From an uncultured Candidatus Saccharibacteria bacterium (GTDB lineage Bacteria > Patescibacteriota > Minisyncoccia > JAHIHE01 > DAOWLE01): a stretch of DNA of 43,165 nt. Position numbers and translations under genes: made by a program. Below the pieces are notes generated by a model. That model was given only the letters and a program-made list of their open reading frames with translations. It did no database searches and was not told the origin of the DNA. The DNA lies in the NCBI GenBank assembly GCA_964430135.1, contig CAYSEG010000008.1:1-43165 (forward strand). The letters are read 5' to 3'. Position 1 is the stretch's first letter. Each line of letters begins with the position of its first letter. Of this stretch, positions 12,000 to 42,996 are shown one piece after another.

Positions 12000-13676
12000 T
12001 TAAAGATGTTTTATCTTCCAGATTTCAGTATCTTCATTTTGATAGGTCTTTTTAAATTTACTATCATTATTTAAGATATTTCTAAGGTTTTGATACTTTG
12101 ATTTACCACCGATAAAAATATACTCGGCTTTGAATTTTTCTTTGATAACTTGAGAAATAGGTTTATCTTTTTGGGGAACTTTGCATTCTGGCAAACTGCA
12201 GATAATTCCTTCTTCGCTGATATGCCGCCAGAGCCAGTATTTCTGAGGGTCGGCTACATACATAAAAGTCGGATCCATTCCTATTATATAATAATTATGA
12301 TGATTATAAAAGAATAATTGCGGAAAATTTCCCCAGTTGGCATTAAAGACAATTGATCCTTGAGGAGTATTTTTATTCAGCCATTCAGCAGCATCTTTGT
12401 ATTGATCATATTTTATTCCCTGATCAATCGCCCATGAAGCATAAGAAATGTTGGCTAATACTAAACCAAGCAGAGTTATCGCGGTGAAAAATTTAATAAT
12501 TTTTTTATTAGTTTGCTTCTTTAGTGTTATTGCGGGCGACTGAAGGGAACGTGGTAATGACAGCCGGGTTAACGAATCTACCCCAAAAGCTCCAAAAAGT
12601 ACAGTAAACGGCACCCAGTATTCAACAAAACGGTTGGCTTTGAGGGTTAGAACGAAAAAGAAAAGAGAAATGATAAAAAGCGAATAGAGAATTACTTTTT
12701 TGTCGTTTCGATCCGCTTGCTCTTTTGTCATTGCGAACGAGCCCGAATAGGGCGAGCGTGGCAATCCCGTATTTTCGCGGGATTGCTTTGTCGTTCCGCT
12801 TCTCGTAATGACAGAGGAGATAATGCCGATCGCAAAACATATCAAAACAAGCAAATTCGCGCGGGCAAAGTTGGCAAGGTCAGCGATTGGAAACCATTCC
12901 ATTCCTACGGGGATAGAGTGGAATATTCCTGCCTTGAAAATTTGTATATAAAGATAATAAAAATTTTTTGGAAAATAAGGATTAATGATTAATCCTCCTA
13001 ATAGTCCAATTCCGGAATAAATTAATAATTTTAGACCTGGCTTCCTGTTAATAAATAAATTTAAGCAGAAGAAAGAAAAAATGAAAAAGAGTAATATTAA
13101 AGAAGCTCCATATGTCCAGGAATACAAGAAAGATAAAACAAAAAGAAGAAAATATTTCTTTTTGATTATAAGATAGAAGCCTAAAAATAAGAATATTATT
13201 GAAATACTTTGGGTTTTAAGTAAATTTAGTCTAAAAATAAAAATTTGAGAGGCGCAGAATAATAAAATTGTCCAGAAAAAAGTAGATTTTATTTTATTTT
13301 GTTTTAATATCCAATAAAAAACTAAAAAGACGAGGCTGTTAAAAATAATTGTGGCTAATTTTGCTCCAAAGATTAAATCTCCATAAGTAAAAGGAACTAA
13401 AAGAATATGGAATAAAAAGTGAAAATCAGAAAAATTGTCTTTCCAGATAGTAAATTGCAGCCAGGGAAAATTATTAATAAACCCCTGTGTTCTTAAAAGA
13501 TAAGCGTTTTTTATGTGATAATAACCATCAGCCCCGGCCAAATTAGGAGTAGAAAATTGTATAAGAGAAAATATGATAAAAAAAAGTATGAAAACAGATA
13601 AATAAGGAATATATTTTTTGATTAGTAAAAAATTCATATTAAGTAAAAAATACTTTGATTTACTTAATTGTATCAT
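12000..13676 (-). CDS. polytopic membrane protein (putative glycosyltransferase) carrying an in-frame repeat-element insertion
   Basis: 558 aa with many TM helices. The loop RSGTTKQSRENTGLPRSPYSGSFAMTKEQADRNDKK is encoded by a GC-rich palindromic element (see repeat 12697-12814). Confidence 0.4.
   Translation of the reverse strand: MIQLSKSKYFLLNMNFLLIKKYIPYLSVFILFFIIFSLIQFSTPNLAGADGYYHIKNAYLLRTQGFINNFPWLQFTIWKDNFSDFHFLFHILLVPFTYGDLIFGAKLATIIFNSLVFLVFYWILKQNKIKSTFFWTILLFCASQIFIFRLNLLKTQSISIIFLFLGFYLIIKKKYFLLFVLSFLYSWTYGASLILLFFIFSFFCLNLFINRKPGLKLLIYSGIGLLGGLIINPYFPKNFYYLYIQIFKAGIFHSIPVGMEWFPIADLANFARANLLVLICFAIGIISSVITRSGTTKQSRENTGLPRSPYSGSFAMTKEQADRNDKKVILYSLFIISLFFFVLTLKANRFVEYWVPFTVLFGAFGVDSLTRLSLPRSLQSPAITLKKQTNKKIIKFFTAITLLGLVLANISYASWAIDQGIKYDQYKDAAEWLNKNTPQGSIVFNANWGNFPQLFFYNHHNYYIIGMDPTFMYVADPQKYWLWRHISEEGIICSLPECKVPQKDKPISQVIKEKFKAEYIFIGGKSKYQNLRNILNNDSKFKKTYQNEDTEIWKIKHL
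12697..12814. repeat. family-A palindromic element (copy A1) inserted in frame inside a CDS
   Basis: TGTCATTGCGAACGAG ... CTCGTAATGACA terminal inverted repeats. Internal hairpins GCCCgaataGGGC and GCAATCCCGtattttcgCGGGATTGC. GC content is far above the flanking sequence. The insertion keeps the reading frame and falls between two TM helices. Confidence 0.65.
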
Positions 13677-16231: not shown

Positions 16232-16317
16232 GCCGAGATGGTGGAATTGGTATACACGTAGGATTTAGGATCCTATGGTCCTTATGGACCTTGTGGGTTC
16301 AAATCCCACTCTCGGCA
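16232..16317 (+). tRNA. tRNA-Leu (anticodon UAG)
   Basis: 7-bp acceptor GCCGAGA/TCTCGGC. Anticodon stem-loop TAGGA-TTTAGGA-TCCTA. Long variable arm GGTCCttatGGACC. T-arm GTGGG-TTCAAAT-CCCAC. CCA is not encoded. Confidence 0.85.
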
Positions 16318-16927: not shown

Positions 16928-17866
16928 TTATTTCCTTTTCCTCTGTTTTCCATGAAATGCCTGATGGATTTTCTTGAGGTGTTTATCGGTAATATGTGTA
17001 TAGATTTGAGTTGTAGTAATACTAGAATGTCCCATAAGAAGTTGAACCGAGCGAATATCTGCTCCGCCCAAAAGGAGGTCTGTTCCAAAAGCATGCCTTA
17101 ATGAGTGAGGGGTTATTTTTTTGGTAATTCCAGCGCTGGCAGCATATTTTTTAACAATTCTCTGAATACTTCTTGGCGTTAGTCTTAAAGAGGCAGTCTT
17201 ACTGGTTTTTACCGTTTTGATAAATAAAGCAGGATCAGTATCTGTTCGTTTTTCTAAGTATTTTTTGAGAGCTTCTTGAGACTCTTTTGATAAAAAAACA
17301 ATTCGCATTTTGTCTCCTTTGCCTCGAATACTGAATTCTCCTTTTTTTAAATTAATTGTTTCCCGATTTAAAGCTGTTAATTCCGAAACTCTAAGCCCGG
17401 TTGAAAAAAGCAATTCCAGAATAGCTTTATCTCTGAGTATCTGAAGATTTTCTTTATGACGCGGCTTTAATTTTTCTTTAAGAGGAGCCTCAAGAAGTTT
17501 TTCTAATTCTCTTTCTTCTAAAAATTCAATTTCGTGTTCAGGGGTTTTTCCTAATTCTACTTTTTCAGCGGCCAGGCTTTTGATGTCTATTTTTGATAAA
17601 TATTTTAAAAAACCCCTTAGAGCAATAATATGGTAATTTTGGGTAATTCTTTTTAATTTTCTGTTTTTTTCATCATGCCAGCGGTTTAAATATAGTCTGT
17701 AGTCTCTGACTTTCTTTTCTGTAATTTGCGAAGGTTTGTTTATTTTAGCCCACAAGACAAATCGTCTTAAATAATGATCATAGTTTTCAATAGTTTTTTG
17801 ACTTCGGTTTTTCTCAATTTCAAGATACTGGAGGTAGTCGGTGATAAGGGAGTTGATGGGGTTCAT
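16928..17866 (-). CDS. XerC/XerD-family tyrosine site-specific recombinase
   Basis: N-terminal core-binding region (LEIEKNRSQKTIENYDHYLRRF). C-terminal catalytic region with R (GLRVSEL), HSLRHAFGT and LLMGHSSITTTQIYTH (the Tyr nucleophile). Confidence 0.85.
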   Translation of the reverse strand: MNPINSLITDYLQYLEIEKNRSQKTIENYDHYLRRFVLWAKINKPSQITEKKVRDYRLYLNRWHDEKNRKLKRITQNYHIIALRGFLKYLSKIDIKSLAAEKVELGKTPEHEIEFLEERELEKLLEAPLKEKLKPRHKENLQILRDKAILELLFSTGLRVSELTALNRETINLKKGEFSIRGKGDKMRIVFLSKESQEALKKYLEKRTDTDPALFIKTVKTSKTASLRLTPRSIQRIVKKYAASAGITKKITPHSLRHAFGTDLLLGGADIRSVQLLMGHSSITTTQIYTHITDKHLKKIHQAFHGKQRKRK

Positions 17867-21724: not shown

Positions 21725-22885
21725 TTGTTTTTGCTTTTTACATTTTTAATTTTGAATTTTATTCATATGAGAACATTTGAACAAAATGAACAAAATAAAG
21801 ATATTTTAGAAAAATCAAGAATAAGAACAATGTCAAAAGATTTGAAAGAGATTCAGACAATAAAAAAAGTTCCTTCAGAAAAAAAAGAGCCTGAAAAAGA
21901 GAAAACTACTACAGAAGAAAAAATAAAAGAGGAAGTTCCGAAAGAAGAGATTTCAAAAAAAGAAGAAACTATAAAAGCGGCAGAGCCGACTAAATTTATT
22001 GAACATATAACTCCTCCTGAGAAAAAAAGCGAAAGAGAGTTATCGCCTCAAGAACGTTTAGCTTATGGAGTAGAGTTTAGAAGACCAAAGCCGGTAGAAA
22101 AACCGCCTTCCGCCGAAACTTCAAAGTCTGCCCCGGTTAAAGTTTCAAAGCGGCCGTCGATTTTTGAGTTTCTTAAGAGGGCGCCAAAACATCCAGAGCT
22201 TTCTAAATTAAATGCTTTAGTAAAATCAAAAAAGTTTTTGGCTTTGATTATTCTTGTTTTCGCTATTAGTATAGGTTCTTTTCTCTATTATAGATATTAT
22301 TATTCGCCTCCGCTTCCGTCTTCTCCTGTTATTCCTGAACCTGCGGCAATTATTCCGATAGAAAATAAAATCGTTATTAATTATTCTGAAGGAGAAAATC
22401 TTTTAGCGAAAGTTGAAACTAAGCTTCGGAGAATGTCAAATCTGCCCGAAATTTCCCGATTGAATATTAAAAATCAAAATGGTTATTATTTAGATTTAAA
22501 AGATATCACTGAAAAATTAAATATTAAAATACCCGAAGAATTGGCGGCAAATATAAAAGATTATAATTTACTCGTTTTTTCTTTAAAGGATGAGGGATTA
22601 AGATTAGGATTAGTTTTTGAAGTAGCTGATATAAAATTGGCTGAAAGTTACACAAGAAGCTGGGAGCGCAAAATGAAGGTTAATTTAAGAACTCTTTTCC
22701 TACATTCTTATGTGAAAACACCGGCTAGATTAAATTTTCAAAATGGTGTTTATCAAAATGTATCTATTCGTTATCTTAATTTACCTAATCCTTTTGTAAG
22801 CATAGATTACGCTTTTGTTGGCAATAAATTAATTATTACCACTTCTAAAGCAAGTATATATAAGATTATTGACATTATAAAATGA
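21725..22885 (+). CDS. hypothetical membrane-anchored protein (K/E-rich N-terminus, one TM helix, C-terminal domain of unknown function)
   Basis: ORF whose TGA overlaps the ftsH ATG (ATGA). No recognisable motif. The true start is probably the ATG at 21767 or later. Confidence 0.4.
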
Positions 22886-33012: not shown

Positions 33013-34071
33013 TTGATTATGTTTAATAAACTCTTCAGCGCTTTTTCACACGACATTGGAATAGATCTCGGCACAGCCAATACCCTGGTTTATGTTAGAG
33101 GAAAAGGAATTGTGATGAATGAACCTTCGGTGGTAGCTATTAATCAGAAGACTGGTCAGATTTTAGCTGTTGGAAATGAGGCTAAGAAAATGGTCGGAAA
33201 GACACCGAGCCACATTATTGCCAGTCGTCCTCTGATAGATGGAGTAATTTCTGATTTTGAAGTGACCGAGCAAATGCTTCGTTATTTTATAGAAAAAGTC
33301 CATCACGAGACTTTTACAATTTTAGTTCGTCCAAGGGTAGTTGTTGGGATTCCTTCAGGAGTTACTGAAGTAGAAAAAAAGGCTGTTCAAGACGCTACTC
33401 TAAATGCCGGGGCACGTCAAGCTTTTTTGATTGAGGAACCAATGGCTGCGGCTATTGGAGTAAGACTTCCAGTCCAAGAAGCGGCCGGTAATATGATTGT
33501 TGATATCGGGGGAGGAACTACAGAAGTAGCGGTTATTTCTTTAGGGGGTATTGTTACTTCAAGAAGTTTGAGAATCGCTGGTGATGAATTAAATGAGGAT
33601 ATTATTCAATATGCCCGTGATGAATTTAATTTGCTTTTAGGAGAAAAAACGGCTGAAGATATAAAAATTGCTATTGGGTCAGCTTACGACTTAGAAGAAC
33701 CTCTTGAAGTTCCGATGCGCGGACGCGATTTAGTAACAGGTCTTCCTAAAGAGGTAATGGTTAATGATACACAAATTAGAGAAGCCCTTGTTCGGTCAGT
33801 AAAGACGCTTGTTGATGCCATTAAGACGACAATTGAAGAAACCCCTCCGGAATTAGTAGCAGATATTATGCATCGGGGAATTATTTTGGTTGGTGGAGGA
33901 AGTCTTCTTAGGGGTTTAGATAAGTTAGTCGCTAAGGAAACTCAGATGCCGGCAAAGGTTGTTGATGATCCAATGACTGCAGTTGTCAGAGGAACCGGAA
34001 TAGTTTTAGAAAACATCAACGCATTGAAAGAAGTGCTGATTAGTGTTCAGCATGAAGAGGCTTTGAAATAA
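33013..34071 (+). CDS. mreB: rod-shape-determining protein MreB
   Basis: DIGIDLGTANTLVYV, DIGGGTTEVAVIS: the actin-fold signatures. Confidence 0.95.
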   Translation: MIMFNKLFSAFSHDIGIDLGTANTLVYVRGKGIVMNEPSVVAINQKTGQILAVGNEAKKMVGKTPSHIIASRPLIDGVISDFEVTEQMLRYFIEKVHHETFTILVRPRVVVGIPSGVTEVEKKAVQDATLNAGARQAFLIEEPMAAAIGVRLPVQEAAGNMIVDIGGGTTEVAVISLGGIVTSRSLRIAGDELNEDIIQYARDEFNLLLGEKTAEDIKIAIGSAYDLEEPLEVPMRGRDLVTGLPKEVMVNDTQIREALVRSVKTLVDAIKTTIEETPPELVADIMHRGIILVGGGSLLRGLDKLVAKETQMPAKVVDDPMTAVVRGTGIVLENINALKEVLISVQHEEALK

Positions 34072-34240
34072 AGTTTTATTATAAAAAATATTAAAGCGTA
34101 ATTAAAATTTCAAGTTTTGGACGGATTGCAAATTAAGGAATTTTTTAAAATTTTAAGTTTATTAATAAGAAAAGGATTGTTGATTTTTATTTAGATGCAA
34201 AAGACGGGTCCGGTTTTGGACGTTTATTGTTATTTCAGTT

Positions 34241-35083
34241 TTGATTTGGTCTGTGATAATCATTTTTTATTCATGTTATATTATGCGCAAGTTATTTTCA
34301 TCAGGGCTAATTACTTTAATATTTTTTTTAATACTAACAGGATTTCTTATTTTTTTAAATTCAAAAAATTATCTTAAGATTCCTAAAGATATTTTTTATA
34401 CTCTCAGTGAGCCTATTCAGAAAGTTTCAATGGCTTCTTTTAATAAGACGAGTAGTCTTATTGATTTAATAAGCTCCATAAAAAATCTTAGAAGGGAAAA
34501 TATAAGGATGAAAGAAGAGCTGAGATTTTTAAAGGCAGAAAATGCGAGGCTTAAAGAAATAGCTTATGAAAATAAAATTTTAAGAGAACAGTTTAAATTA
34601 TCAATTGATCAGAAGCTCCAGTTAATTTCTTCGTATGTGATAGGAAAAAGTTCTAAAAATTTCTCGCAGTATCTACTTATAGACAAGGGTTTAGATGATG
34701 GCGTTGAAAAAGGAAATCCGGTCATTACTTCGGGTGGAATTTTAATCGGTAAAGTCTCAGAAGTTTCATCGGGCTCGGCAAAAATTTTACTTATTACCGA
34801 TCCCTCAAGTGTTATAAACGCTATTATTCAAGAAACAAGAGCGAGCGGAATAGTTAAAGGAGAATATGGGCTAGGTCTTGTTATGGATATGATTCCTCAG
34901 AATGAGGAAGTCAACATCGGTGATACAGTGATTACTTCAGCTTTTGGCGGAGATTTTCCAAAAGGACTTTTAATTGGGCAGATTAAGGAAATAAAAGGGT
35001 CAGAAAACCAAATTTTCCAAAAAGCAATTATAGAACCAGCTCAAGAATTGAAAAAATTAGAGATTGTTTTTGTAGTTCAATAG
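34241..35083 (+). CDS. mreC: rod-shape-determining protein MreC
   Basis: TM helix, coiled coil (LRRENIRMKEELRFLKAENARLKE), and a beta domain with GNPVITSGGILIGKV ... GDTVITSAFGGDFPKGLLIGQI. The likely start is the ATG at 34283 (MRKLF). Confidence 0.8.
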   Translation: MIWSVIIIFYSCYIMRKLFSSGLITLIFFLILTGFLIFLNSKNYLKIPKDIFYTLSEPIQKVSMASFNKTSSLIDLISSIKNLRRENIRMKEELRFLKAENARLKEIAYENKILREQFKLSIDQKLQLISSYVIGKSSKNFSQYLLIDKGLDDGVEKGNPVITSGGILIGKVSEVSSGSAKILLITDPSSVINAIIQETRASGIVKGEYGLGLVMDMIPQNEEVNIGDTVITSAFGGDFPKGLLIGQIKEIKGSENQIFQKAIIEPAQELKKLEIVFVVQ

Positions 35084-35085
35084 GA

Positions 35086-35213
35086 TATCATTGCGGGGAG
35101 CCCCTTAAGGGGCGATGAAGTAATCCCGTGCTATTAATACAGGCTTTTTATAAATCTACGGGATTGTTTCATCGTCCTGAAGCATATAGTTCAGGATTTC
35201 TCGCAACAACGGA
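35086..35213. repeat. family-A palindromic element (copy A3) between mreC and mreD
   Basis: TCATTGCGGGGA-GCCCCttaaGGGGC-GATGAAGTAATCCCGT ... ACGGGATTGTTTCATC ... TTCTCGCAACAA. Nested inverted repeats, GC-rich. It ends 3 nt before the mreD ATG. Confidence 0.65.
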
Positions 35214-35216
35214 TTT

Positions 35217-35729
35217 ATGAAGATTAGTTTAAATATTTTAATTTTGTTCTTAACTGTTATCTTACAGGTTACTCTTGTGCCTCATTTAAGTATTTTTGGA
35301 GTTTACCCTGATTTTGTATTTATCTTGATTATCTTTTTTAGTATTTTAAAACCCATCCATCAATCATTAATTTTTGCATTAGTCGGCGGATTATTTCTAG
35401 ATTTTTTTACTTTATACCCTTTAGGTGCTATTACATTAAGTTTTATTTTAATTTCGTATCTTTTTAGTTTTGTTGTTCAAAATATTCTAAAAAGCCATAA
35501 TTTAGCAACATTTATAATTCTTGGTTTTATCGGAACAATAATTTACGAAATATTAGTATCTTCTTTTATAAAATTGGCTGATTTTATTTATTCATCTAGT
35601 AAAATTCTTGAATTTCGATATAATTTTATTTATTTTATATTACCAGAAGCAGTTTATAATACTATTTTGATTTTCCTTGTTTTTTTATTCTTTCGGTGCT
35701 TCAAGCAACGTTTATTAGCATATAAATAA
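35217..35729 (+). CDS. mreD: rod-shape-determining protein MreD (putative)
   Basis: 170 aa with 5 TM helices, positioned between mreC and the PBP2 gene. Confidence 0.55.
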   Translation: MKISLNILILFLTVILQVTLVPHLSIFGVYPDFVFILIIFFSILKPIHQSLIFALVGGLFLDFFTLYPLGAITLSFILISYLFSFVVQNILKSHNLATFIILGFIGTIIYEILVSSFIKLADFIYSSSKILEFRYNFIYFILPEAVYNTILIFLVFLFFRCFKQRLLAYK

Positions 35730-37660
35730 TGAGCTTATTTTTTTCTTTAAATAATTCAAACAAATATCGTCTCAAGAGATCATTTAAAAAAGATATTGAA
35801 CCAGAAGAAGTTTTTTTAGATTCTCCTTTTGAAGACGCCCCTCGTCTAAAATATCTTCATGCTCAGAGATATTTTATTGCATTGGGACGAATTCTAATTT
35901 TGCTTCTGATTATTCTTATTGTCAGAATAGGGTGGCTCCAAATTGCTAAGGGGGATTATTATCGGGAAATAGCCCAAGCAAACCGTATTCGCACTTGTCC
36001 TATAAGGGCAGATCGAGGAATTATTTATGATAGGAATGGAGTGCCCTTAGTTAAAAATATACCCGCTTTTGATTTAGTTATTATTCCTTCTAAATTACCA
36101 AAAGACGAGATTCATCTTCGTATTTTGACTAATATCATTTCTTCGGTAATTGGCCAGCAACGAGAAGAAATAGAAAGAATAATAAAAGAAGCCGATCATT
36201 CTTCATCAGATCCAATTTTAATAAAAAGAAATCTTGACAGACAAAAAGCACTTATTTTAAAAACTAAAACTGTTGGTTTTGAAGAAGTGAGAGTAGAAAT
36301 AAATGCCATGCGGGATTATTTTGATGGTGTCATTTTTTCTCATATTATTGGATATACTGGCAAAATCAATGAGCAAGAATTGAGAGATTATCCATCTTAT
36401 AATCTTACTGATTATATTGGGAAGGTTGGGATAGAAAAGACTTACGAAAAAACTCTTCGGGGTAATTACGGGAGCGAGGAGTTTGAAATTGATTCTTTAG
36501 GAAGAATTCAGCGAGTTATAAACAAAAAAGAAGCCGAGCCCGGCTTAAATCTTGTTCTTTCAATTGACAGTGCTCTTCAGAATAAACTTTATGAAATTTT
36601 AGAAAAACAACTCCAAGTTCTTAAAGTAAAAGGAGCTGCTGGGATAGCTGTTGATCCCCGAAATGGAAAGGTTTTAGCCTTGGTGAGTTTGCCAAGTTTT
36701 GACAATAATCTTTTTGCCGAAGGAATTTCCGAGAAAGATTTTAAAGCCTTGTTAAACAATCCAGCTCATCCTTTTCTAAACCGCGTCATTAGCAGCCAAT
36801 ACCCACCCGGTTCAACAATTAAACCGATTATTGCCAGCGCTGCTCTCGAGGAAAATATTATCAGCAGTTCTGAAAAAATTAATTGTCAAGGCAGGTTAGT
36901 TATACCAAATCCATACTGGCCGGACAAGCCTTCAGTTTTTTTAGATTGGAAAGTTCATGGTCCGACAAATATTACAAAAGCCATTGCTGAGTCCTGTAAC
37001 GTATTTTTTTATACTGTTGGCGGAGGATTCGGCAAAATAAAAGGTTTAGGAATAGAAAGAATTAAAAAATACTTCCATCTTTTTGGACTGGGAGAAACTC
37101 TTGGTATTGATCTTACAGGTGAGGCGCCAGGATTGGTTCCCGATATAGAATGGAAGAAGAAAAATAAGCATGGTGAACCTTGGCGTTTAGGAGATACATA
37201 TCATACTTCAATCGGTCAGGGAGACACTACCGCTACCCCGCTTCAAATCGCTATGGCGACGGCGGTTGTTGCTAATGGCGGAACATTATTCCAACCGCAG
37301 ATAGTTGATAAAATTATTAATTCCGAAAAGGAATTAGTTAAAGATATTGAGCCTAAAATAATCAGAAAAGATTTTATTGACCCAAAGAATCTTCAAGTTG
37401 TCCAAAAGGGAATGCGAGAAGCGGTGATTTATGGTTCTTCTCGGAGAATGTCCAATTTGCCGGTGAAAGCAGCTGGGAAAACCGGCACAGCTCAATTTGG
37501 AAAAAATAAAGAAACTCATGCTTGGTTTACTTGTTATGCTCCTTATGAATCGCCGGAAATTGTTCTGACTATTTTAATTGAGGGCGGCGGCGAGGGGCAT
37601 GCCGGGGCTTTGCCGGTGGCAAAGGAGGTGCTAGAATGGTATTTTAGCAATAAAAATTAG
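35729..37660 (+). CDS. mrdA: penicillin-binding protein 2 (elongasome transpeptidase)
   Basis: N-terminal TM helix and dimerisation domain, then transpeptidase motifs STIKP (SxxK), SCN (SxN) and KTGTA (KTG). Confidence 0.9.
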   Translation: MSLFFSLNNSNKYRLKRSFKKDIEPEEVFLDSPFEDAPRLKYLHAQRYFIALGRILILLLIILIVRIGWLQIAKGDYYREIAQANRIRTCPIRADRGIIYDRNGVPLVKNIPAFDLVIIPSKLPKDEIHLRILTNIISSVIGQQREEIERIIKEADHSSSDPILIKRNLDRQKALILKTKTVGFEEVRVEINAMRDYFDGVIFSHIIGYTGKINEQELRDYPSYNLTDYIGKVGIEKTYEKTLRGNYGSEEFEIDSLGRIQRVINKKEAEPGLNLVLSIDSALQNKLYEILEKQLQVLKVKGAAGIAVDPRNGKVLALVSLPSFDNNLFAEGISEKDFKALLNNPAHPFLNRVISSQYPPGSTIKPIIASAALEENIISSSEKINCQGRLVIPNPYWPDKPSVFLDWKVHGPTNITKAIAESCNVFFYTVGGGFGKIKGLGIERIKKYFHLFGLGETLGIDLTGEAPGLVPDIEWKKKNKHGEPWRLGDTYHTSIGQGDTTATPLQIAMATAVVANGGTLFQPQIVDKIINSEKELVKDIEPKIIRKDFIDPKNLQVVQKGMREAVIYGSSRRMSNLPVKAAGKTGTAQFGKNKETHAWFTCYAPYESPEIVLTILIEGGGEGHAGALPVAKEVLEWYFSNKN

Positions 37661-37690
37661 GCGAACTTTTTGATTAATTTAATAAGATAA

Positions 37691-37804
37691 GAAAAAGTCA
37701 AAAATCAAAATTCAAAACTAAAAGTCAAAAATCAAAAGTGAATTATTTGAAACTTTTAACTTTTAACTTGAACTTTTAGCTTTTGAATTTTGCATTTTGA
37801 ATTT
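37691..37804. repeat. family-D 7-bp-periodic A-rich imperfect palindrome (copy D2)
   Basis: AAAGTCA|AAAATCA|AAATTCA|AAACTAA|AAGTCAA|AAATCAA - loop - TTTTAAC|TTTTAAC|TTGAACT|TTTAGCT|TTTGAAT|TTTGCAT|TTTGAAT. Confidence 0.65.
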
Positions 37805-37807
37805 GTT

Positions 37808-38266
37808 ATGAAAAATTTTATTACCAAAGAAGGACTTAAAAAATTAAAAGAAGAATTAAATATTCTTAAAAGAAAAAAACGTCAAGAGATAGCCAAACGT
37901 ATTGGTGAGGCAAAAGAAATGGGGGATTTATCTGAAAACGCCGAATATGCCGAAGCAAAAGAAGCGCAATCTCTTAATGAACAGCAGATTGCTGAATTAG
38001 AGCAAACGATCAGAGAGACTGCTCTGATTGATGAGACAAGAAATAAGACTACTATTGTGCAAATAGGATCAACAGTTACCGTGAAAAATAATGATCAAAC
38101 TAAATGTTTTACTATTGTTGGTTCAAGTGAAGCAAATCCCTCTCAAGGAAAAGTATCTAACGAATCTCCGTTGGGGGCAGCTTTTTTAAACCATAAAATA
38201 GGGGATGATATTGAAGTAAAAACTCCGGGAGGAACAGTAAAATATAAAATAATAAAAATTGAATAA
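37808..38266 (+). CDS. greA: transcription elongation factor GreA
   Basis: MKNFITKEGLKKLKEELNILKRKKRQEIAKRIGEAKEMGDLSENAEYAEAKEAQ, then the C-terminal FKBP-like domain. The ORF-track start at 37790 lies inside repeat D2. Confidence 0.9.
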   Translation: MKNFITKEGLKKLKEELNILKRKKRQEIAKRIGEAKEMGDLSENAEYAEAKEAQSLNEQQIAELEQTIRETALIDETRNKTTIVQIGSTVTVKNNDQTKCFTIVGSSEANPSQGKVSNESPLGAAFLNHKIGDDIEVKTPGGTVKYKIIKIE

Positions 38267-38292
38267 GTTAGAAATAAATAGTAAGGATGTAA

Positions 38293-40008
38293 ATGAGCTT
38301 AACGGTTATTTTTATAATTTTATCTTTTTTATGGTTTTTACGGACAATTAGAGCCGCGCTTTTTAATGTTTGGATTTGGCAAATTAAAGAATATCGGCTT
38401 GACAGAATGTGGGCTCACTTGAGTATTTTAAGTGGCAAGAGATTATTTCTTAATTGGTTAAATATTATTAAATTAGGACTTCTTGTTCTCTTTCCGTTGT
38501 TTTTACTTCTAAGGCCGTTTCTTTTTTTAGGGTTAGTTATTATTCTCTTTTCTTTAGAATCATTTTTAGGATTCAAAGAATTTCTGGATAAACGATTTTA
38601 TCGGCCGAAATTTACTCCTAAGGCGACGATAATTTTGGCTGGAACTGTTGGAATTGAAATCATTATTGTTTTTTTCTTGACTTATATTTTATTTGAAGGA
38701 GCGTTCTTTGGGTTGAGATTTACTTTATTATCTATAGGTAATTTAAATGAAGTTATACAATATACTTCTATTAGCTGTTTTTCTTTTTTATTTCTAATAT
38801 TGAGTGTTGTTCTGCCGTTAATTGTTTTTCTTTTGGTATTAGTTCTTAACCCGATAACAAAATTATTTAAAGCGAGAACGATTAAAAAAGCAAAAAAGAA
38901 AATAAAGAAATTTTCGAATCTTATTGTAATTGGAATTACTGGAAGCTATGGCAAAACTTCAACAAAAGAATTTTTAGCAACAATTCTAGCTGAGCGTTTT
39001 AATGTTTTAAAAACAATTAAAGCCAATACTGATATTGGCGTGGCGAAAACTATTCTTGAAAAATTAAAACCAGAACATCAAATTTTTGTTGTGGAAATGG
39101 GAGCTTATAAGCGAGGGGAAATTAAGGCAATTTGCGATATTGTAAAGCCGAAGATTGGAGTTTTAACCGGAATCAATGAACAACATTTGGCACTTTTTGG
39201 AGGGTTGGAGAATACGATAAGAGCGAAATTTGAGCTGATTGAGGCGTTGCCGGAAGATGGGTTGGGGGTAATAAACAAAAAGTTAAAAGTTTCCGCCTTC
39301 GTCCCTGCTGGGACTACGACGGACAAGCAAAATTCAAAGTTCAAAGTTGCAGTTAAAAGTTTAAAGTTTTTTTCTGGTAGCGAAAAATCAGATATTTATG
39401 CGAGTGATATAATAATTGAAAAAGATAAAATCAAATTTAAAGTGATAAACGGCGAGGAGAGCGAGGATTTTGAAGTTAGTTTAATCGGCAAGCAGAATGT
39501 TTCAAATATCTTGGCTTGTGTGGCTGTGGCTGAATATTTAGGAATGACTTTAAAAGAAATTTCTAAGGCAGCGAAGAAAATTAAGCCGATTGAGAAAACA
39601 ATGAAAGCTTATCAAGGAATTAATGGAATAACCTTGATTGATGATACTTATAATGCTAATCCGGCCGGTGTTTTGGCGGCTTTGGATTATTTGAAAATTT
39701 GGAAGGGCAGAAAAGCGATTGTGATGCCCTGTTTGATTGAGCTGGGAAGTACGTCAAAGGATGTTCATCAGAGAATCGGCGCGAAAATCGGCGAGAACTG
39801 CGATTTGGCGATTATTACCAAGAAAGAGTGTTATGAAGATATTAAAAAAGCCGCTTGCGAGAACGGGATGGATAAACAGAATATTTTGCTTTCGCAGGAC
39901 CCGCGGGAAATTTTTGAAAAATTAAAAAATTTTAACAAGCCCGAAGATGTGATATTATTAGAAAGCAGGGTTCCTCAGCAATTGATTGATATGTTGGAAT
40001 TTGAATAA
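38293..40008 (+). CDS. murF: MurF-type Mur ligase fused to an N-terminal polytopic membrane domain of about 200 aa
   Basis: Residues 1-200 contain 5-6 TM helices. They are followed by IVIGITGSYGKTSTKEFLATIL (Mur ligase P-loop), GVLTGINEQHLALFGGLENTIRAKFELIE and LIDDTYNANPAGVLAALDYL (MurF C-terminal domain). Confidence 0.75.
   Translation: MSLTVIFIILSFLWFLRTIRAALFNVWIWQIKEYRLDRMWAHLSILSGKRLFLNWLNIIKLGLLVLFPLFLLLRPFLFLGLVIILFSLESFLGFKEFLDKRFYRPKFTPKATIILAGTVGIEIIIVFFLTYILFEGAFFGLRFTLLSIGNLNEVIQYTSISCFSFLFLILSVVLPLIVFLLVLVLNPITKLFKARTIKKAKKKIKKFSNLIVIGITGSYGKTSTKEFLATILAERFNVLKTIKANTDIGVAKTILEKLKPEHQIFVVEMGAYKRGEIKAICDIVKPKIGVLTGINEQHLALFGGLENTIRAKFELIEALPEDGLGVINKKLKVSAFVPAGTTTDKQNSKFKVAVKSLKFFSGSEKSDIYASDIIIEKDKIKFKVINGEESEDFEVSLIGKQNVSNILACVAVAEYLGMTLKEISKAAKKIKPIEKTMKAYQGINGITLIDDTYNANPAGVLAALDYLKIWKGRKAIVMPCLIELGSTSKDVHQRIGAKIGENCDLAIITKKECYEDIKKAACENGMDKQNILLSQDPREIFEKLKNFNKPEDVILLESRVPQQLIDMLEFE
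39278..39372. repeat. heptamer-flanked GC-core palindromic element inserted in frame in murF
   Basis: AAAAGTT|AAAAGTT-tccgccttcGTCCCtgctGGGACtacgacggacaagc-AAAATTC|AAAGTTC|AAAGTTG|CAGTTAA|AAGTTTA|AAGTTTT. It encodes KKLKVSAFVPAGTTTDKQNSKFKVAVKSLKFF. The core resembles the family-E core atCCCTTGCGGGACt. Confidence 0.55.
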
Positions 40009-40032: not shown

Positions 40033-40051
40033 TTATTACGCATTAAGTTTT

Positions 40052-40279
40052 TCATTCGCCGCGCTGTGTGCCTGTTGTGCACGATGCACGCACAACCCAG
40101 ACCGACAAGACGAGAGCAATTACTAATGCTATCCAGGGCAATAATAGCCCTGTAAGCACTGCATCCCTTGTGATTAGAAAAACTAGTCCGCTGGCAGCCA
40201 TCGTCCATACAATTATATCTACTAACAATGTCACAGCGGCTTTCCAGATTTCCCATGGATCGTTTGGTTTATACTTCAT
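40052..40279 (-). CDS. small (75 aa) two-TM hydrophobic protein encoded in a GC-rich patch
   Basis: AGGAGGTGA SD 8 nt upstream of the ATG. A TTGACA -35 box lies about 70 nt upstream. The unit has its own terminator. GC content is far above the window average. Confidence 0.45.
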   Translation of the reverse strand: MKYKPNDPWEIWKAAVTLLVDIIVWTMAASGLVFLITRDAVLTGLLLPWIALVIALVLSVWVVRASCTTGTQRGE

Positions 40280-40502
40280 TATTTTTTCACCTCCTATTTT
40301 TTCCTTCTTTGTCTAGATCTTATCAGATATTATAGAGTTGTCAAGAGCAAAGATTGCTGGCTCTATAGTCCTGAAGGGCCGTGGAGCTTGAATGCAAACC
40401 TGTATCATTTTCGAAATTATTCCTATAATATAAGCGTAAGTCTTGCATTTTGGCTCCATAGGGCTATCGCCACTATGGAGCCAGCGAAGATATAAAAGAT
40501 AT

Positions 40503-41801
40503 ATGTCCAATCCATTTAGGCCAATTTCAGTCGCTTTATCACCAAATACATCTTGGGAAGATATTTTTTTGGCGCTGTCTTTGATAATTTTTCCTTGGAA
40601 TTGGTTGAAATGGAAAAAAGGCAATGCGATTGAAAAATTGGAAAATAAATTTAAGAATTATCTTGGAGTAGAATACGCTTTTAGTTTTGCCAGCGGAAGG
40701 GCGGGACTTTTTGCGATTTTAAAATCTCTTGATTTAAAAGAAGGAGATGAGGTGATTACTCAGGCATATACAACTGTGGCGGTTCCAAACGCAATTATTT
40801 GGGCTGGGGCAAAACCGATTTATGTTGATATTGATGAAGAAACTTTTAATATGGATCCGAAAAAACTTGAGGAAAAAATTACTTCCCGGACAAAAGCAAT
40901 AATTATCCAGCACACTTTTGGATTATCCGGAAGAATAAAAGAAATTTTAGAAATTTCAAAGAAGTATAATTTATTTGTCATCGAGGACTGTGCCCACGCT
41001 TTAGGTTCGGAATACCAAAACAGGAAAGTCGGCACCTTTGGCGATGCCGCCTTTTTCAGTTTTGGCAGGGATAAAATTATTTCTTCAGTTTTTGGCGGGA
41101 TGGTCGTTTTAAAAGACCAAAAGATATACCAGAAATTTCAAGAAATTTATAGGGAGATGCCATATCCTTCAGCGCGATGGATTTTTCAGCAAATTTTTCA
41201 TCCGATCGCTTTTGCGATTATTCTGCCGAGTTATTATTTTTTTAAACTCGGACAGATTTTGTTGTTTTTATTTCAAAAATTAAACTTGCTTTCCCGAGCG
41301 TATCTTAAAATAGAAAAAAACGGCGAGATGCCAAAAAATTTTCCGCAAAAATTCCCAAATGTTTTAGCTAAATTAGCGCTTGTCCAATTTAAAAAATTAG
41401 AAAAATTTAACAGACATAGAATAAAAATCGCTAAATTTTATTCTAGAAATTTGAAGATTGATAGAACTATAGACCACTCAGTAGGTCTAAAATACAAATT
41501 GCCTCAAACACCAGAAAATTCGAAACATATATTTTTGTATTATACAATTCAGAGTTCAGAAAGAGATAAAATTTTAGAAACAGCGAAAAAAAATCATATT
41601 ATTTTAGGCAACTGGTTTAGCGGACCTGTCAGTCCTGAAGAAGTGAATTTAAAAGCGGTGGGTTATCAAAAAGGGGATTGCCCAGTTGCGGAGAAAGTTG
41701 GAAAGATGTCTTTGAATTTACCAACACACCACAGGATAACTTTGGAAGATGCAGAAAAAATTGTTAATTTTTTGAAAAATTCGTCGAATAAAACTGCTTG
41801 A
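40503..41801 (+). CDS. DegT/DnrJ/EryC1/StrS-family aminotransferase (second copy, long form)
   Basis: GVEYAFSFASGRAGL, IIQHTFGLSG, VIEDCAHALGS, FFSFGRDKIISSVFGG (PLP-binding Lys). The ORF-track start at 40443 runs through a GC-rich hairpin; MSNPF at 40503 is more plausible. Confidence 0.8.
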   Translation: MSNPFRPISVALSPNTSWEDIFLALSLIIFPWNWLKWKKGNAIEKLENKFKNYLGVEYAFSFASGRAGLFAILKSLDLKEGDEVITQAYTTVAVPNAIIWAGAKPIYVDIDEETFNMDPKKLEEKITSRTKAIIIQHTFGLSGRIKEILEISKKYNLFVIEDCAHALGSEYQNRKVGTFGDAAFFSFGRDKIISSVFGGMVVLKDQKIYQKFQEIYREMPYPSARWIFQQIFHPIAFAIILPSYYFFKLGQILLFLFQKLNLLSRAYLKIEKNGEMPKNFPQKFPNVLAKLALVQFKKLEKFNRHRIKIAKFYSRNLKIDRTIDHSVGLKYKLPQTPENSKHIFLYYTIQSSERDKILETAKKNHIILGNWFSGPVSPEEVNLKAVGYQKGDCPVAEKVGKMSLNLPTHHRITLEDAEKIVNFLKNSSNKTA

Positions 41802-41949: not shown

Positions 41950-42996
41950 ATGCTGATAAAAGAAATTAAAAACAAAGATTACTGGGAAAACTTTCTTTTA
42001 TCCCAGCCAGAACCGTCTTTCCTACAATCCTGGTATTGGGGCAAGTTCCACGAATCGCTCGGCGATAAAATTTTTCGCTTGGGAATTTTTGACAACGAAG
42101 AAATTGTCGGCGCGGCTTTGATAATTAGAGTTTTGGCGCGGCGAGGATCATTCCTTTTTTGCCCTTATGGACCAATAATAAGTCAAAAGTCAAAAGTCAA
42201 AAGTCAAAAGCGTAATTCAAAATGCAGAAGTATTGAGATTTTGACAAATTATTTGAAAGATTTAGCGAGAAAAGAAAAGTGCTGTTTTCTTAGAATTAGT
42301 CCGAATTGGGAGAGAAGCGAGAAGGATATAAAAATTTTCAAGGATTTAGGATTTAGGGATGCGCCGATTCATCTTAAGCCGGAAATAACTTGGCTTTTGG
42401 ATATTAGACCGAGCGAAGATGAAATTTTGATGGGAATGCGAAAAACTACTCGGAATTTAATCAGAAGAGGATATAAAGAAAATATCCAGATTATTAAAAG
42501 CGAAAATCCGGATGATTTGGGCGAATTTTATGAAATTTATCAGAAAACCGCTAAACGGCAAAATTTTGTTCCGTTCTCCAAAGAATATTTAAAAAAAGAA
42601 TTTAGTGTTTTTGTTGGAGAAAAAAAAGTCAGTTTATTTTTCGCCAAGCATAAAGATAAACTACTGGCAGCTTCTTTTTTTATTTTTTATGGACGTCAAG
42701 GTTTTTATCATCATAGCGCTTCTTTGCCGAATACTTCTAAAATTTCAACTTCTTATCTTTTACTTTGGAAAGCAATTCAGGAAGCGAAGAAAAGAAATTG
42801 CGAAATTTTCAATTTTTGGGGTATTGCCCCGAAAAATAAACCAAAGCATCCTTGGCAAGGTTTAACTTTTTTTAAAAAAGGTTTTGGCGGTTATCAAAAA
42901 GATTTAATTCATGCCCAAGATTTGCCAATGGATAGGCGATATTGGTTAAATTGGGTGGTTGAAACTTTCCGAAGAATTAAACGAGGATATTCATAA
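41950..42996 (+). CDS. FemAB-family peptidoglycan interpeptide-bridge aminoacyltransferase
   Basis: SFLQSWYWGKF ... FLFCPYGPI ... and C-terminal ...FFKKGFGG matches the FemAB-family (PF02388) architecture as I recall it; this family is commonly annotated in CPR bacteria. Confidence 0.75.
   Translation: MLIKEIKNKDYWENFLLSQPEPSFLQSWYWGKFHESLGDKIFRLGIFDNEEIVGAALIIRVLARRGSFLFCPYGPIISQKSKVKSQKRNSKCRSIEILTNYLKDLARKEKCCFLRISPNWERSEKDIKIFKDLGFRDAPIHLKPEITWLLDIRPSEDEILMGMRKTTRNLIRRGYKENIQIIKSENPDDLGEFYEIYQKTAKRQNFVPFSKEYLKKEFSVFVGEKKVSLFFAKHKDKLLAASFFIFYGRQGFYHHSASLPNTSKISTSYLLLWKAIQEAKKRNCEIFNFWGIAPKNKPKHPWQGLTFFKKGFGGYQKDLIHAQDLPMDRRYWLNWVVETFRRIKRGYS
42178..42245. repeat. in-frame (AGTCAAA)4 heptamer array with a partner arm inside femAB
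   Basis: aagtcaaaagtcaaaagtcaaaagtcaaaag ... attgagattttgac, encoding SQKSKVKSQKRNSKCRSIEILT. Same unit as the family-D intergenic repeats. Confidence 0.55.

What the first reader, a model, noticed from the sequence alone, without database searches (positions are those of the whole stretch)
38293..40008. MurF ligase with its N-terminal domain replaced by a 200-aa polytopic membrane domain
Canonical MurF is a soluble three-domain enzyme. Here the first 200 residues form 5-6 TM helices, and the Mur-ligase P-loop (GITGSYGKTSTK) starts only at about residue 213. A membrane-tethered final cytoplasmic peptidoglycan-precursor ligase would place D-Ala-D-Ala addition at the membrane next to MraY and MurG. 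I have not seen this architecture described.
Basis: partly seen in the sequence, partly recalled or inferred. Interest (0 to 1): 0.6.

Follow-up and report, generated by a model that had tools for sequence, protein, structure and literature searches.

The report
Membrane-anchored MurF cell-wall ligase
This gene encodes the enzyme that normally finishes the soluble cell-wall precursor, but here its usual front domain is replaced by a conserved five-helix membrane domain; this form occurs in several bacterial phyla and I found no paper describing it.

Summary
ORF 38293-40008 (+) is one 571-aa gene with a Shine-Dalgarno site. It has about 190 residues of membrane helices, a lysine-rich linker, then a MurF-type ligase with its P-loop at residues 214-225. 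The canonical MurF N-terminal domain is absent. No internal start codon splits the gene, and a 96% identical copy exists in an independent sample.

The architecture is not a curiosity of this genome, nor of the candidate phyla radiation (CPR). All 82 membrane-type loci examined share it, including Poribacteria, Clostridia/Erysipelotrichia and Bacteroidales. A profile of the membrane domain alone finds 518 protein clusters (E<=1e-10).

The membrane domain has invariant motifs on its predicted cytoplasmic loops. It has no Pfam family and no match among solved structures, yet it models confidently (pLDDT 89).

In Poribacteria the gene occupies the murF slot of a complete dcw cluster (murE-hydrolase-this gene-ddl-mraY-murD-ftsW-murG-murC). 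It is therefore most likely the working MurF.

An alpha/beta hydrolase with an intact catalytic triad lies directly upstream in 72 of 82 loci. It is missing from this window.

I found no paper describing any of this. Enzyme activity, the substrate (UDP-linked or lipid-linked) and the absence of a second murF remain untested.

The parts
38283..38287 (+). Shine-Dalgarno site (AAGGA), 5 nt before the ATG
   Evidence: Read directly from the sequence.
38293..40008 (+). Whole gene: membrane-anchored MurF-type ligase, 571 aa
   Evidence: Single ORF. P0001 is 96% identical over its full length in an independent sample. Full-length homologues are found in 82 loci.
38293..38862 (+). N-terminal membrane domain, residues 1-190, five helices; predicted topology N-terminus outside, C-terminus inside
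38377..38448 (+). Conserved cytoplasmic loop 1, residues 29-52. Motif WQxKEYxxxR...H.....G in CPR; Q-[LQ]-x-x-Y-x-x-x-R-[FY] across phyla
   Evidence: W29 and Y34 are invariant; Q30, K32, E33, R38, H42 and G48 are at least 90% conserved in 95 sequences. The motif is shared with Poribacteria, Clostridia and Bacteroidales. Loop length is fixed at 21-24 residues, with a mean of 5.5 K+R.
38587..38622 (+). Conserved cytoplasmic loop 3, residues 99-110. Motif [KR][KR]-P-x-x-x-T-x-[KR]
   Evidence: P105, T108 and K110 are invariant in 95 sequences. The motif is present in all phyla. Loop length is exactly 10 residues in all 95.
38860..38922 (+). Lysine-rich linker helix, residues 190-210, continuous with the last membrane helix and leading into the first strand of the ligase
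   Evidence: AF2 gives one helix from 151 to 205, then a strand at 211-216. Mean K+R is 7.8. A200 is invariant. TIGR01143 aligns from residue 199.
38932..38967 (+). ATP-binding P-loop GITGSYGKTSTK, residues 214-225; the SYGK variant marks this membrane-type family
   Evidence: The pattern [IV]GITGSYGK was one of the two used in the genome scan, and every membrane-type locus found carries G[IV]TGSYGK.
38935..39531 (+). Mur ligase central (ATP-binding) domain, residues 215-413
   Evidence: Pfam PF08245, 5.6e-37. Foldseek best matches are MurF structures: 4qf5 E 6.7e-26, 3zl8 TM-score 0.73.
39610..39960 (+). Mur ligase C-terminal domain, residues 440-556, including the MurF-type DDTYNANP motif (39640-39663) and ELG...H
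   Evidence: Pfam PF02875, 4.5e-13. It aligns with P. aeruginosa MurF 'IDDSYNANP' and 'MGELGS..H'. D450, Y453, N456, E483, L484 and H492 are conserved.
40443..41801 (+). Conserved downstream neighbour: DegT/DnrJ/EryC1-type PLP enzyme (452 aa)
   Evidence: Pfam, 1.8e-76. It lies directly downstream of the ligase in most CPR loci, in the position that ddl holds in other phyla.
41950..42996 (+). Conserved downstream neighbour: FemAB-family peptidyltransferase (348 aa)
   Evidence: Pfam FemAB, 1.4e-34. It is found 1.2-1.7 kb downstream of the ligase in most CPR loci.
33013..38266 (+). Upstream context: mreB, mreC, mreD, PBP2 (mrdA) and greA on the same strand
   Evidence: Pfam. The same mreC-mreD-PBP2-greA block lies upstream in L004. 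The independent contig L086 also has greA directly upstream.

Best explanation
[quoted passage not shown] It is a distinct, ancient form. The roughly 80-residue soluble N-terminal domain is replaced by a five-helix membrane domain with the N-terminus outside and the C-terminus inside.

The last membrane helix runs without a break into a basic linker helix and then into the first strand of the ATP-binding domain. The active site is therefore held within a few nanometres of the inner membrane face.

Two fixed-length, invariant cytoplasmic loops (Q..Y...R and P..T.K) face the ligase. They most likely take over part of the job of the lost domain (holding the nucleotide or pyrophosphate end of the substrate) or dock a partner such as MraY or the co-encoded hydrolase.

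Shown here: the architecture, its conservation, its distribution, the topology signal, the gene neighbourhoods, and the dcw placement of homologues.
Inferred: the catalytic activity, the substrate, the role of the loops, and hand-over to MraY.
For: One gene, not two:
- Single ORF with a Shine-Dalgarno site and no internal start.

It is MurF-like:
- MurF is the best match by HMM, PDB sequence and fold. The MurF motif DDTYNANP and the ELG..H motif are kept.

The fusion is conserved:
- At least 120 full-length homologues at 43-57% identity and 85-99% coverage (most 96-99%).
- 518 clusters carry the N-terminal domain at E<=1e-10. The domain always starts at residues 1-28 of the protein, and complete proteins are about 480-590 aa.
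- All 82 membrane-type loci found have 3-7 hydrophobic segments before the P-loop.

The N-terminal domain is under selection as a folded unit:
- Invariant W29, Y34, P105, T108 and K110.
- The motifs are shared across phyla.
- pLDDT is 89.

Topology:
- Mean K+R is 5.5, 3.6 and 7.8 in loop 1, loop 3 and the linker, against 0-0.7 in the other loops. The outer loops vary in length.

Orthology by position:
- Poribacteria L084 reads ftsI-murE-hydrolase-this ligase-ddl-mraY-murD-ftsW-murG-murC. MurE, Ddl, MraY, MurD, FtsW, MurG and MurC all score above their NCBIfam cutoffs. L048 shows the same order.
- Gottesmanbacteria L055 (CPR) reads ftsI-murE-pgeF-murC-murB-murA-glmU-hydrolase-this ligase-...-femAB-...-mraY-ftsW-murG.
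- ddl lies directly downstream in most Clostridia and Bacteroidales loci.

No other Mur ligase is in the window.
Against: - No activity or substrate data exist.
- I could not read whole genomes, so a second, canonical murF elsewhere in this or related genomes is not excluded.
- The protein scores below the TIGR01143 cutoff (248 against 288.6 bits).
- Two motifs differ from canonical MurF. 'GDMxELG' is 'MPCLIELG' here, and the 'GxHN' histidine is glutamine.
- In CPR the neighbouring gene is a DegT-like enzyme rather than ddl, so the dipeptide donor could differ.
- CPR MurE proteins that simply lack domain 1 exist. Loss of that domain may therefore need no replacement, and the loops may serve another purpose.
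Confidence: 0.65

Rival explanations
1. The enzyme works on a lipid-linked substrate. With the UDP-binding domain gone and a membrane domain in its place, it would add the dipeptide to undecaprenyl-pyrophosphate-MurNAc-tripeptide (lipid I or II carrying a tripeptide). That would put it after MraY rather than before it.
For: - Domain 1, which in canonical MurF contacts the UDP part (established knowledge of Mur ligase structures), is absent.
- The invariant basic and polar loops lie at the membrane face.
- There is a precedent: MurT, a Mur-family ligase without domain 1, acts on lipid II. It appears among the remote hits.
Against: - Synteny (murE-this gene-ddl-mraY) fits the ordinary order of steps equally well.
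- CPR MurE also lacks domain 1, with no membrane domain added, so loss of domain 1 does not by itself imply a lipid substrate.
- No direct evidence of any kind.
Confidence: 0.1
2. It is a paralogue with a different job that coexists with an ordinary MurF. Examples would be adding an alternative dipeptide or depsipeptide, or re-attaching recycled peptides. The hydrolase and the Ddl-like or DegT-like neighbour would supply or edit the donor.
For: - A three-gene module (hydrolase, ligase, Ddl-family ligase) lies outside the dcw cluster in Clostridia and Bacteroidales.
- Bacteroidetes are known to have a MurF-alanine racemase fusion model (NF008897, listed).
- Motifs in the C-terminal domain are altered.
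- Ddl-family members scored include Van-type ligases, but below their cutoffs.
Against: - In Poribacteria the gene is the only murF-like gene in an otherwise complete dcw cluster. The adjacent Ddl scores above the D-Ala-D-Ala ligase cutoff (339 against 262 bits), while the Van models are far below theirs.
- The gene is carried on a 655-kb complete CPR chromosome and on a 662-kb CPR contig (L017 and L041), where redundant paralogues are unlikely (inference).
- In Gottesmanbacteria it sits in a precursor operon with murA, murB, murC, murE, mraY and murG.
Confidence: 0.15
3. The membrane domain is only a passive anchor with no part in catalysis or in specific partner binding.
For: - The helices themselves are poorly conserved: 34% identity in the N-terminal part against 55% in the ligase.
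- MurE without domain 1 exists in CPR, so domain 1 may be dispensable.
Against: - A mere anchor needs one helix, not five.
- Loops 1 and 3 have fixed lengths and invariant residues across phyla that have otherwise diverged to about 30% identity.
- The domain is modelled as a confident compact fold.
Confidence: 0.08
4. Artefact: two adjacent genes joined by a sequencing or assembly error or by a wrong gene call.
For: None found. One homologue (P0002) is a mosaic, nearly identical in the middle of the protein but not at its ends, which shows that chimeric contigs or recombination do occur in this family.
Against: - The same fusion is seen in 82 independent loci and hundreds of clusters.
- A 96% identical full-length copy with the same neighbours comes from another sample.
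- There is no internal start codon.
Confidence: 0.01

Closest known systems
Canonical MurF (UDP-N-acetylmuramoyl-tripeptide--D-alanyl-D-alanine ligase; PDB 1gg4, 4cvk, 4qf5, 3zl8)
   Same: The central ATP-binding and C-terminal domains match. It is the best hit by HMM, sequence and fold. The P-loop, the DDxYNANP motif and the ELG..H motif are shared. Homologues hold the same position in the dcw cluster.
   Different: Canonical MurF is soluble and has three domains. Here domain 1 (about 80-100 residues) is replaced by a 190-residue five-helix membrane domain. The P-loop carries SYGK instead of SNGK. 'GDM' before ELG is 'PCL'. The score is below the family cutoff.
MurT of the MurT/GatD lipid II amidation complex (PDB 7q8e, 9sq9)
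   Same: It is a Mur-family ligase that lacks domain 1, and it works at the membrane on a lipid-bound precursor.
   Different: MurT is soluble, has a DUF1727-type C-terminal domain and needs GatD. The match here is only remote: 28.6 bits against an 800-bit cutoff, E about 1e-6.
Natural Mur chimeras: MurE-MurF, MurD-FtsW and MraY-MurG fusions (PMC10214165)
   Same: These are Mur enzymes fused to another cell-wall protein. MurD-FtsW also ties a Mur ligase to a polytopic membrane protein. The fusions are used as evidence for a precursor-synthesis complex.
   Different: Those fusions add a known enzyme and keep all three ligase domains. Here a domain is replaced, by a membrane domain of no known family. 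The survey screened only proteins over 600 aa, so this 480-590 aa class was outside it.
Recruitment of soluble MurF to the membrane machinery through MreB, MraY and MurG (Chlamydophila pneumoniae, PMC3187750)
   Same: The idea is the same: the last soluble step is held next to the first membrane steps. In this window the gene follows mreBCD-PBP2.
   Different: There the link is a non-covalent protein contact. Here the enzyme itself is an integral membrane protein.
CapB/PgsB poly-gamma-glutamate synthetase
   Same: It is a Mur-family amide ligase associated with the membrane (own knowledge).
   Different: It did not appear among the listed NCBIfam, Pfam or PDB hits. It has a single anchor, makes a different product and has different partners.

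Membership tests
MurF (Mur ligase family, D-Ala-D-Ala-adding enzyme) | Central ATP-binding domain with P-loop (Pfam PF08245) | tested here: met
   Residues 215-413, E 5.6e-37, full profile 1-200. P-loop GITGSYGKTSTK.
MurF (Mur ligase family, D-Ala-D-Ala-adding enzyme) | C-terminal domain (Pfam PF02875) with the MurF-type DDxYNANP and ELG..H motifs | tested here: met
   Residues 440-556, E 4.5e-13. DDTYNANP aligns with DDSYNANP of P. aeruginosa and A. baumannii MurF. The canonical 'GDM' before ELG is 'PCL' here.
MurF (Mur ligase family, D-Ala-D-Ala-adding enzyme) | Soluble N-terminal domain 1 that contacts the UDP part of the substrate | tested here: not met
   TIGR01143 is matched only from position 64 of 418. 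PDB MurF chains align from residue 99-118. Residues 1-205 are membrane helices with no Pfam hit.
MurF (Mur ligase family, D-Ala-D-Ala-adding enzyme) | Score above the curated family cutoff (TIGR01143, 288.6 bits) | tested here: not met
   247.9 bits. The shortfall fits the missing first 63 profile positions. MurF is still the top model, ahead of MurD (82), MurC (77) and MurE (71).
MurF (Mur ligase family, D-Ala-D-Ala-adding enzyme) | Overall fold closest to solved MurF structures | tested here: met
   Foldseek ranks ten MurF chains first (E 6.7e-26 to 1.7e-20, target TM-score up to 0.73), then MurE and MurC.
MurF (Mur ligase family, D-Ala-D-Ala-adding enzyme) | Gene in the murF position of the dcw cluster, between murE and mraY, or next to ddl | tested here: inconclusive
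   Met for membrane-type homologues in Poribacteria, for ddl adjacency in Clostridia and Bacteroidales, and for a CPR precursor operon. In this window the neighbours are mreBCD-PBP2-greA upstream and DegT-like plus FemAB downstream.
MurF (Mur ligase family, D-Ala-D-Ala-adding enzyme) | [quoted passage not shown] | not testable with these tools
   Needs an enzyme assay or complementation.
MurF (Mur ligase family, D-Ala-D-Ala-adding enzyme) | Sole MurF of the genome (orthologue, not an extra paralogue) | not testable with these tools
   No other Mur ligase is in the 43-kb window. Whole genomes could not be read.
MurT (lipid II isoglutaminyl synthase subunit) | MurT-specific model match and DUF1727-type C-terminal domain | tested here: not met
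   NF045635 scores 28.6 bits against an 800-bit cutoff. The C-terminal domain here is PF02875.
Membrane-type MurF family defined here (SYGK P-loop plus N-terminal five-helix domain) | N-terminal domain with Q..Y...R and P..T.K loop motifs, followed by G[IV]TGSYGK | tested here: met
   All motifs are present in the window protein. The N-terminal profile search finds 860 clusters at E<=1e-3.
Membrane-type MurF family defined here (SYGK P-loop plus N-terminal five-helix domain) | Alpha/beta hydrolase gene directly upstream | tested here: not met
   Present in 72 of 82 loci. There is no hit anywhere in this window, and greA is directly upstream in the independent contig L086 too.

The most novel reading that the evidence does not exclude
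The membrane domain and the co-encoded serine hydrolase make MurF part of a previously unrecognised membrane-embedded machine. That machine either works on a lipid-linked tripeptide precursor, which would reverse the textbook order of the MurF and MraY steps, or passes UDP-MurNAc-pentapeptide directly into MraY. The invariant cytoplasmic loops would form the binding site for the pyrophosphate end of the substrate.
Probability: 0.12. Interest if true: 0.9.

Novelty: new variant of a known kind. Interest (0 to 1): 0.66.

Why it matters
Textbooks treat MurC-F as soluble cytoplasmic enzymes. Whether they form a complex at the membrane with MraY and MurG is a long-standing question, argued mostly from weak interactions and gene fusions.

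Here is a natural MurF that is itself an integral membrane protein. It is conserved across CPR, Poribacteria, Clostridia/Erysipelotrichia and Bacteroidales, including abundant gut lineages (one Muribaculaceae cluster has 3,637 member sequences). It gives three things:
- a direct system for testing substrate channelling;
- a membrane domain of no known family or solved fold, with clear mutational targets;
- an unexplained, tightly linked hydrolase partner.

It also matters for annotation, because pipelines call these proteins plain MurF. And it matters for antibiotic targeting, because inhibitors designed against the domain 1 interface would not apply.

Tried and rejected
Literature and library searches that found nothing:
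- Six literature searches that returned results, plus reading three candidate papers, found no description of a membrane-type MurF.
- Pfam on the N-terminal domains of five family members at E<=10 gave nothing credible.
- Rfam on the whole window found three tRNAs and nothing near the gene.

Tools that were not available:
- The AlphaFold database search was not on the machine, so I could not list named UniProt members.
- Model coordinates are not exposed, so I could not measure how close the conserved loops lie to the UDP site.
- Whole genomes cannot be read. The genome scan patterns were specific to the membrane type and could not reveal a co-resident canonical MurF.

Ideas considered and dropped:
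- The small minus-strand ORFs between the ligase and the DegT-like gene as a conserved partner. They are unrelated to one another, apart from one match in L011.
- A stand-alone version of the N-terminal domain. The short hits range from 68 to 282 aa, which looks like fragments from short contigs. This is not proven.
- A split gene with an internal start.
Full report
**1. The observation**

The window holds a single ORF at 38293-40008 on the + strand, encoding 571 aa. An AAGGA Shine-Dalgarno site lies 5 nt upstream of the ATG.

Kyte-Doolittle analysis shows four hydrophobic blocks within residues 1-194, followed by a run of lysines at 195-207. The P-loop GITGSYGKTSTK is at 214-225.

Pfam finds Mur_ligase_M at 215-413 and Mur_ligase_C at 440-556, and nothing in the first 205 residues even at E<=10. 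The best NCBIfam model is murF TIGR01143, matched only from profile position 64 of 418. Its 248 bits fall below the 288.6 cutoff.

Sequence search of the PDB returns MurF chains first (4cvk at 5e-39). The alignments begin at MurF residue 99-118. The canonical N-terminal domain is therefore absent, not merely diverged.

No in-frame ATG or GTG lies between residues 150 and 230. The only alternatives are two TTG codons inside the last membrane helix, without a ribosome-binding site.

**2. The fusion is real and conserved**

- A search of 5.8 billion proteins returns at least 120 homologues, most covering 96-99% of the query (range 85-99%) at 43-57% identity and 515-616 aa. One further protein is 96% identical and comes from another sample.
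- That sample's contig has the same neighbours: the end of greA upstream and a DegT-like gene downstream.
- AlphaFold2 with 95 homologues gives mean pLDDT 88.6 and pTM 0.83. The helices are at 3-31, 36-44, 46-52, 55-73, 75-98, 109-145 and 151-205, followed by a Mur ligase fold.
- The N-terminal 207 residues modelled alone reach pLDDT 88.9.
- Foldseek ranks ten MurF chains at the top for the whole model (E 6.7e-26 to 1.7e-20), ahead of MurE and MurC.

**3. The membrane domain is not a simple anchor**

In an alignment of 95 homologues, W29, Y34, P105, T108 and K110 are invariant. Q30, K32, E33, R38, H42 and G48 are at least 90% conserved.

These residues fall in two loops of fixed length: 21-24 residues for loop 1 and exactly 10 for loop 3. 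Both loops are rich in Lys and Arg (means of 5.5 and 3.6), as is the linker (7.8). The N-terminus, the TM2-TM3 turn and the TM4-TM5 loop carry 0-0.7 basic residues and vary in length.

By the positive-inside rule the topology is N-terminus outside, five helices, ligase inside. The ligase must be inside because it uses ATP. Both invariant loops then face the ligase.

The last membrane helix is continuous with the linker helix that enters the first strand before the P-loop. The catalytic domain is thus held close to the membrane.

**4. Distribution**

A profile of the N-terminal domain, searched against 1.84 billion representative proteins, finds 860 clusters at E<=1e-3 and 518 at E<=1e-10. The domain always starts within the first 28 residues of the protein. 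Complete proteins are about 480-590 aa. I saw no other fusion partner among the best 150 hits.

I examined the best 80 of those loci plus the contigs fetched earlier. All 82 membrane-type loci have the P-loop at residue about 123-391, most around 180-200. The extreme values come from ORFs called from the first possible start codon in high-GC contigs. In every case the P-loop is preceded by 3-7 hydrophobic segments.

Besides CPR lineages (Parcubacteria/Paceibacteria, Staskawicz-, Nealson-, Wildermuth-, Yanofsky-, Gottesman- and Magasanikbacteria) the loci include:
- Poribacteria;
- Clostridia (Oscillospiraceae, Ruminococcaceae, Peptococcaceae);
- Erysipelotrichia (Solobacterium-like);
- Bacteroidales (Muribaculaceae, Prevotellaceae, Alloprevotella).

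The N-terminal domains align across phyla with shared motifs: Q-[LQ]-x-x-Y-x-x-x-R-[FY] and [KR][KR]-P-x-x-x-T-x-[KR]. The Muribaculaceae branch alone gives 7,886 hits. NCBI and JGI name these proteins MurF.

**5. Is it the MurF?**

The strongest evidence is gene position.

- In Poribacteria locus L084 the order is ftsI, murE, an alpha/beta hydrolase, the membrane-type ligase, ddl, mraY, murD, ftsW, murG, murC, then two further ORFs that look like ftsQ (no family hit) and ftsA (judged only from its N-terminal sequence). MurE, Ddl, MraY, MurD, FtsW, MurG and MurC all score above their NCBIfam cutoffs.
- L048, on a 4.69-Mb chromosome, shows mraW-ftsI-murE-hydrolase-ligase-ddl-mraY. The membrane-type gene is the only murF-like gene in these otherwise complete dcw clusters.
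- In a 1.2-Mb Gottesmanbacteria contig (CPR, L055) the gene sits in a precursor operon: ftsI, murE, pgeF, murC, murB, murA, glmU, hydrolase, ligase, DegT-like, then after further genes femAB, mraY, ftsW and murG.
- In most Clostridia and Bacteroidales loci, ddl follows immediately.

In the window itself the gene follows mreB-mreC-mreD-PBP2-greA and precedes a DegT-like gene and a FemAB gene. No other Mur ligase is in the 43 kb.

I could not read whole genomes. A canonical murF elsewhere is therefore not excluded. It seems unlikely for the 655-kb complete CPR chromosome and the 662-kb CPR contig that carry this gene (L017 and L041); that is an inference.

**6. Mechanism**

The best-supported reading (confidence about 0.65) is a housekeeping MurF that is an integral membrane protein. 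It would add D-Ala-D-Ala to the tripeptide precursor at the inner face of the membrane. The invariant loops would replace part of domain 1's role or dock a partner.

The rivals are:
- a lipid-linked substrate (about 0.10), suggested by the loss of the UDP-binding domain and by the MurT precedent;
- a paralogue with another donor or role (about 0.15);
- a passive anchor (about 0.08), which the invariant loops argue against;
- an artefact (about 0.01).

One finding counts against over-reading the domain swap. CPR MurE proteins of 405-408 aa score above the MurE cutoff yet lack domain 1 altogether, with nothing in its place.

**7. Comparison with what is known**

The protein works like, and is closest to, canonical MurF. 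It fails two family criteria: the N-terminal domain and the curated cutoff.

Known Mur chimeras (MurE-MurF, MurD-FtsW, MraY-MurG) add whole enzymes. The survey that catalogued them screened only proteins over 600 aa and never mentions transmembrane segments (PMC10214165). Soluble MurF is known to contact MreB, MraY and MurG in Chlamydophila (PMC3187750).

I found no description of a membrane-type MurF in six literature searches that returned results, or in the three papers I read for it. The library does not cover subscription-only papers, so this is absence of evidence.

**8. Verdict**

I rate it a new variant of a known kind, not categorically new.

It is also richer, because the membrane domain has invariant loops and belongs to no known family, and a catalytically intact hydrolase is tightly linked to it. 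Interest 0.66.

Noticed in passing
Related loci, e.g. L002:9225-10004, L048:8871-9641, L080:8687-9481, L057:8822-9559; absent from the window: An alpha/beta hydrolase of about 250 aa lies directly upstream of the membrane-type MurF in 72 of 82 loci across all phyla, and in 20 of them the two genes overlap by 4 nt. Its catalytic residues are conserved (HGW, GHSxGG with Ser in 97%, Asp in 94%, His in 93%). It fits no specific NCBIfam family (closest is EstV lipase, below cutoff), and its role is unknown.
   Followed up: partly
L055:2267-3484 and L039:2126-3352: CPR MurE proteins of 405-408 aa score above the TIGR01085 cutoff (375-387 bits against 257) but match only from profile position about 70. 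They are MurE without its N-terminal domain, and there is no room upstream for a separate domain gene.
   Followed up: partly
window 40443-41801 and 41950-42996; CPR loci L002, L004, L005, L009 and others: In CPR a DegT-like PLP enzyme and then a FemAB-family gene follow the ligase, in the position where other phyla have ddl. SerRS lies about 0.7-1.1 kb upstream in most CPR loci. The DegT-like protein matches its Pfam model in two pieces, which suggests an insertion.
   Followed up: partly
Protein P0002 (locus L087:7641-9491) compared with window 38293-40008: P0002 is about 100% identical to the window protein over residues about 250-450 but only 26-48% identical at both ends. This points to a mosaic gene (recombination) or a chimeric metagenome contig.
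   Followed up: partly
window 40052-40279 (-): A 75-aa ORF with two hydrophobic stretches lies in a locally GC-rich patch (60% at 40051-40100 against 33% for the window), between the ligase and the DegT-like gene. It has one homologue, at the same position in L011 (52% identity). The small ORFs at this position in other loci are unrelated, and Rfam finds no match there.
   Followed up: partly
window 2843-4363, 4372-6069, 12000-13676 (all -) and 21725-22885 (+): Four ORFs of 386-565 aa have no Pfam match. The three on the minus strand sit in a glycosylation-type cluster (PMT_2, GT2, DegT aminotransferase, epimerase, GNAT).
   Followed up: no
L040 (labelled Chloroflexota, GC 69%) and L050 (labelled Gammaproteobacteria, GC 39%): Both loci carry the CPR-type arrangement (hydrolase, ligase, DegT-like, FemAB). 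Either the bins are mislabelled or the module has moved between phyla. Many loci labelled 'Candidatus Saccharibacteria' are generic labels for CPR bins.
   Followed up: no
window 16928-17866 (-) and 16232-16317 (+): A tyrosine recombinase (phage-integrase family) gene lies about 600 bp from a tRNA gene. This could be the edge of an integrated element.
   Followed up: no
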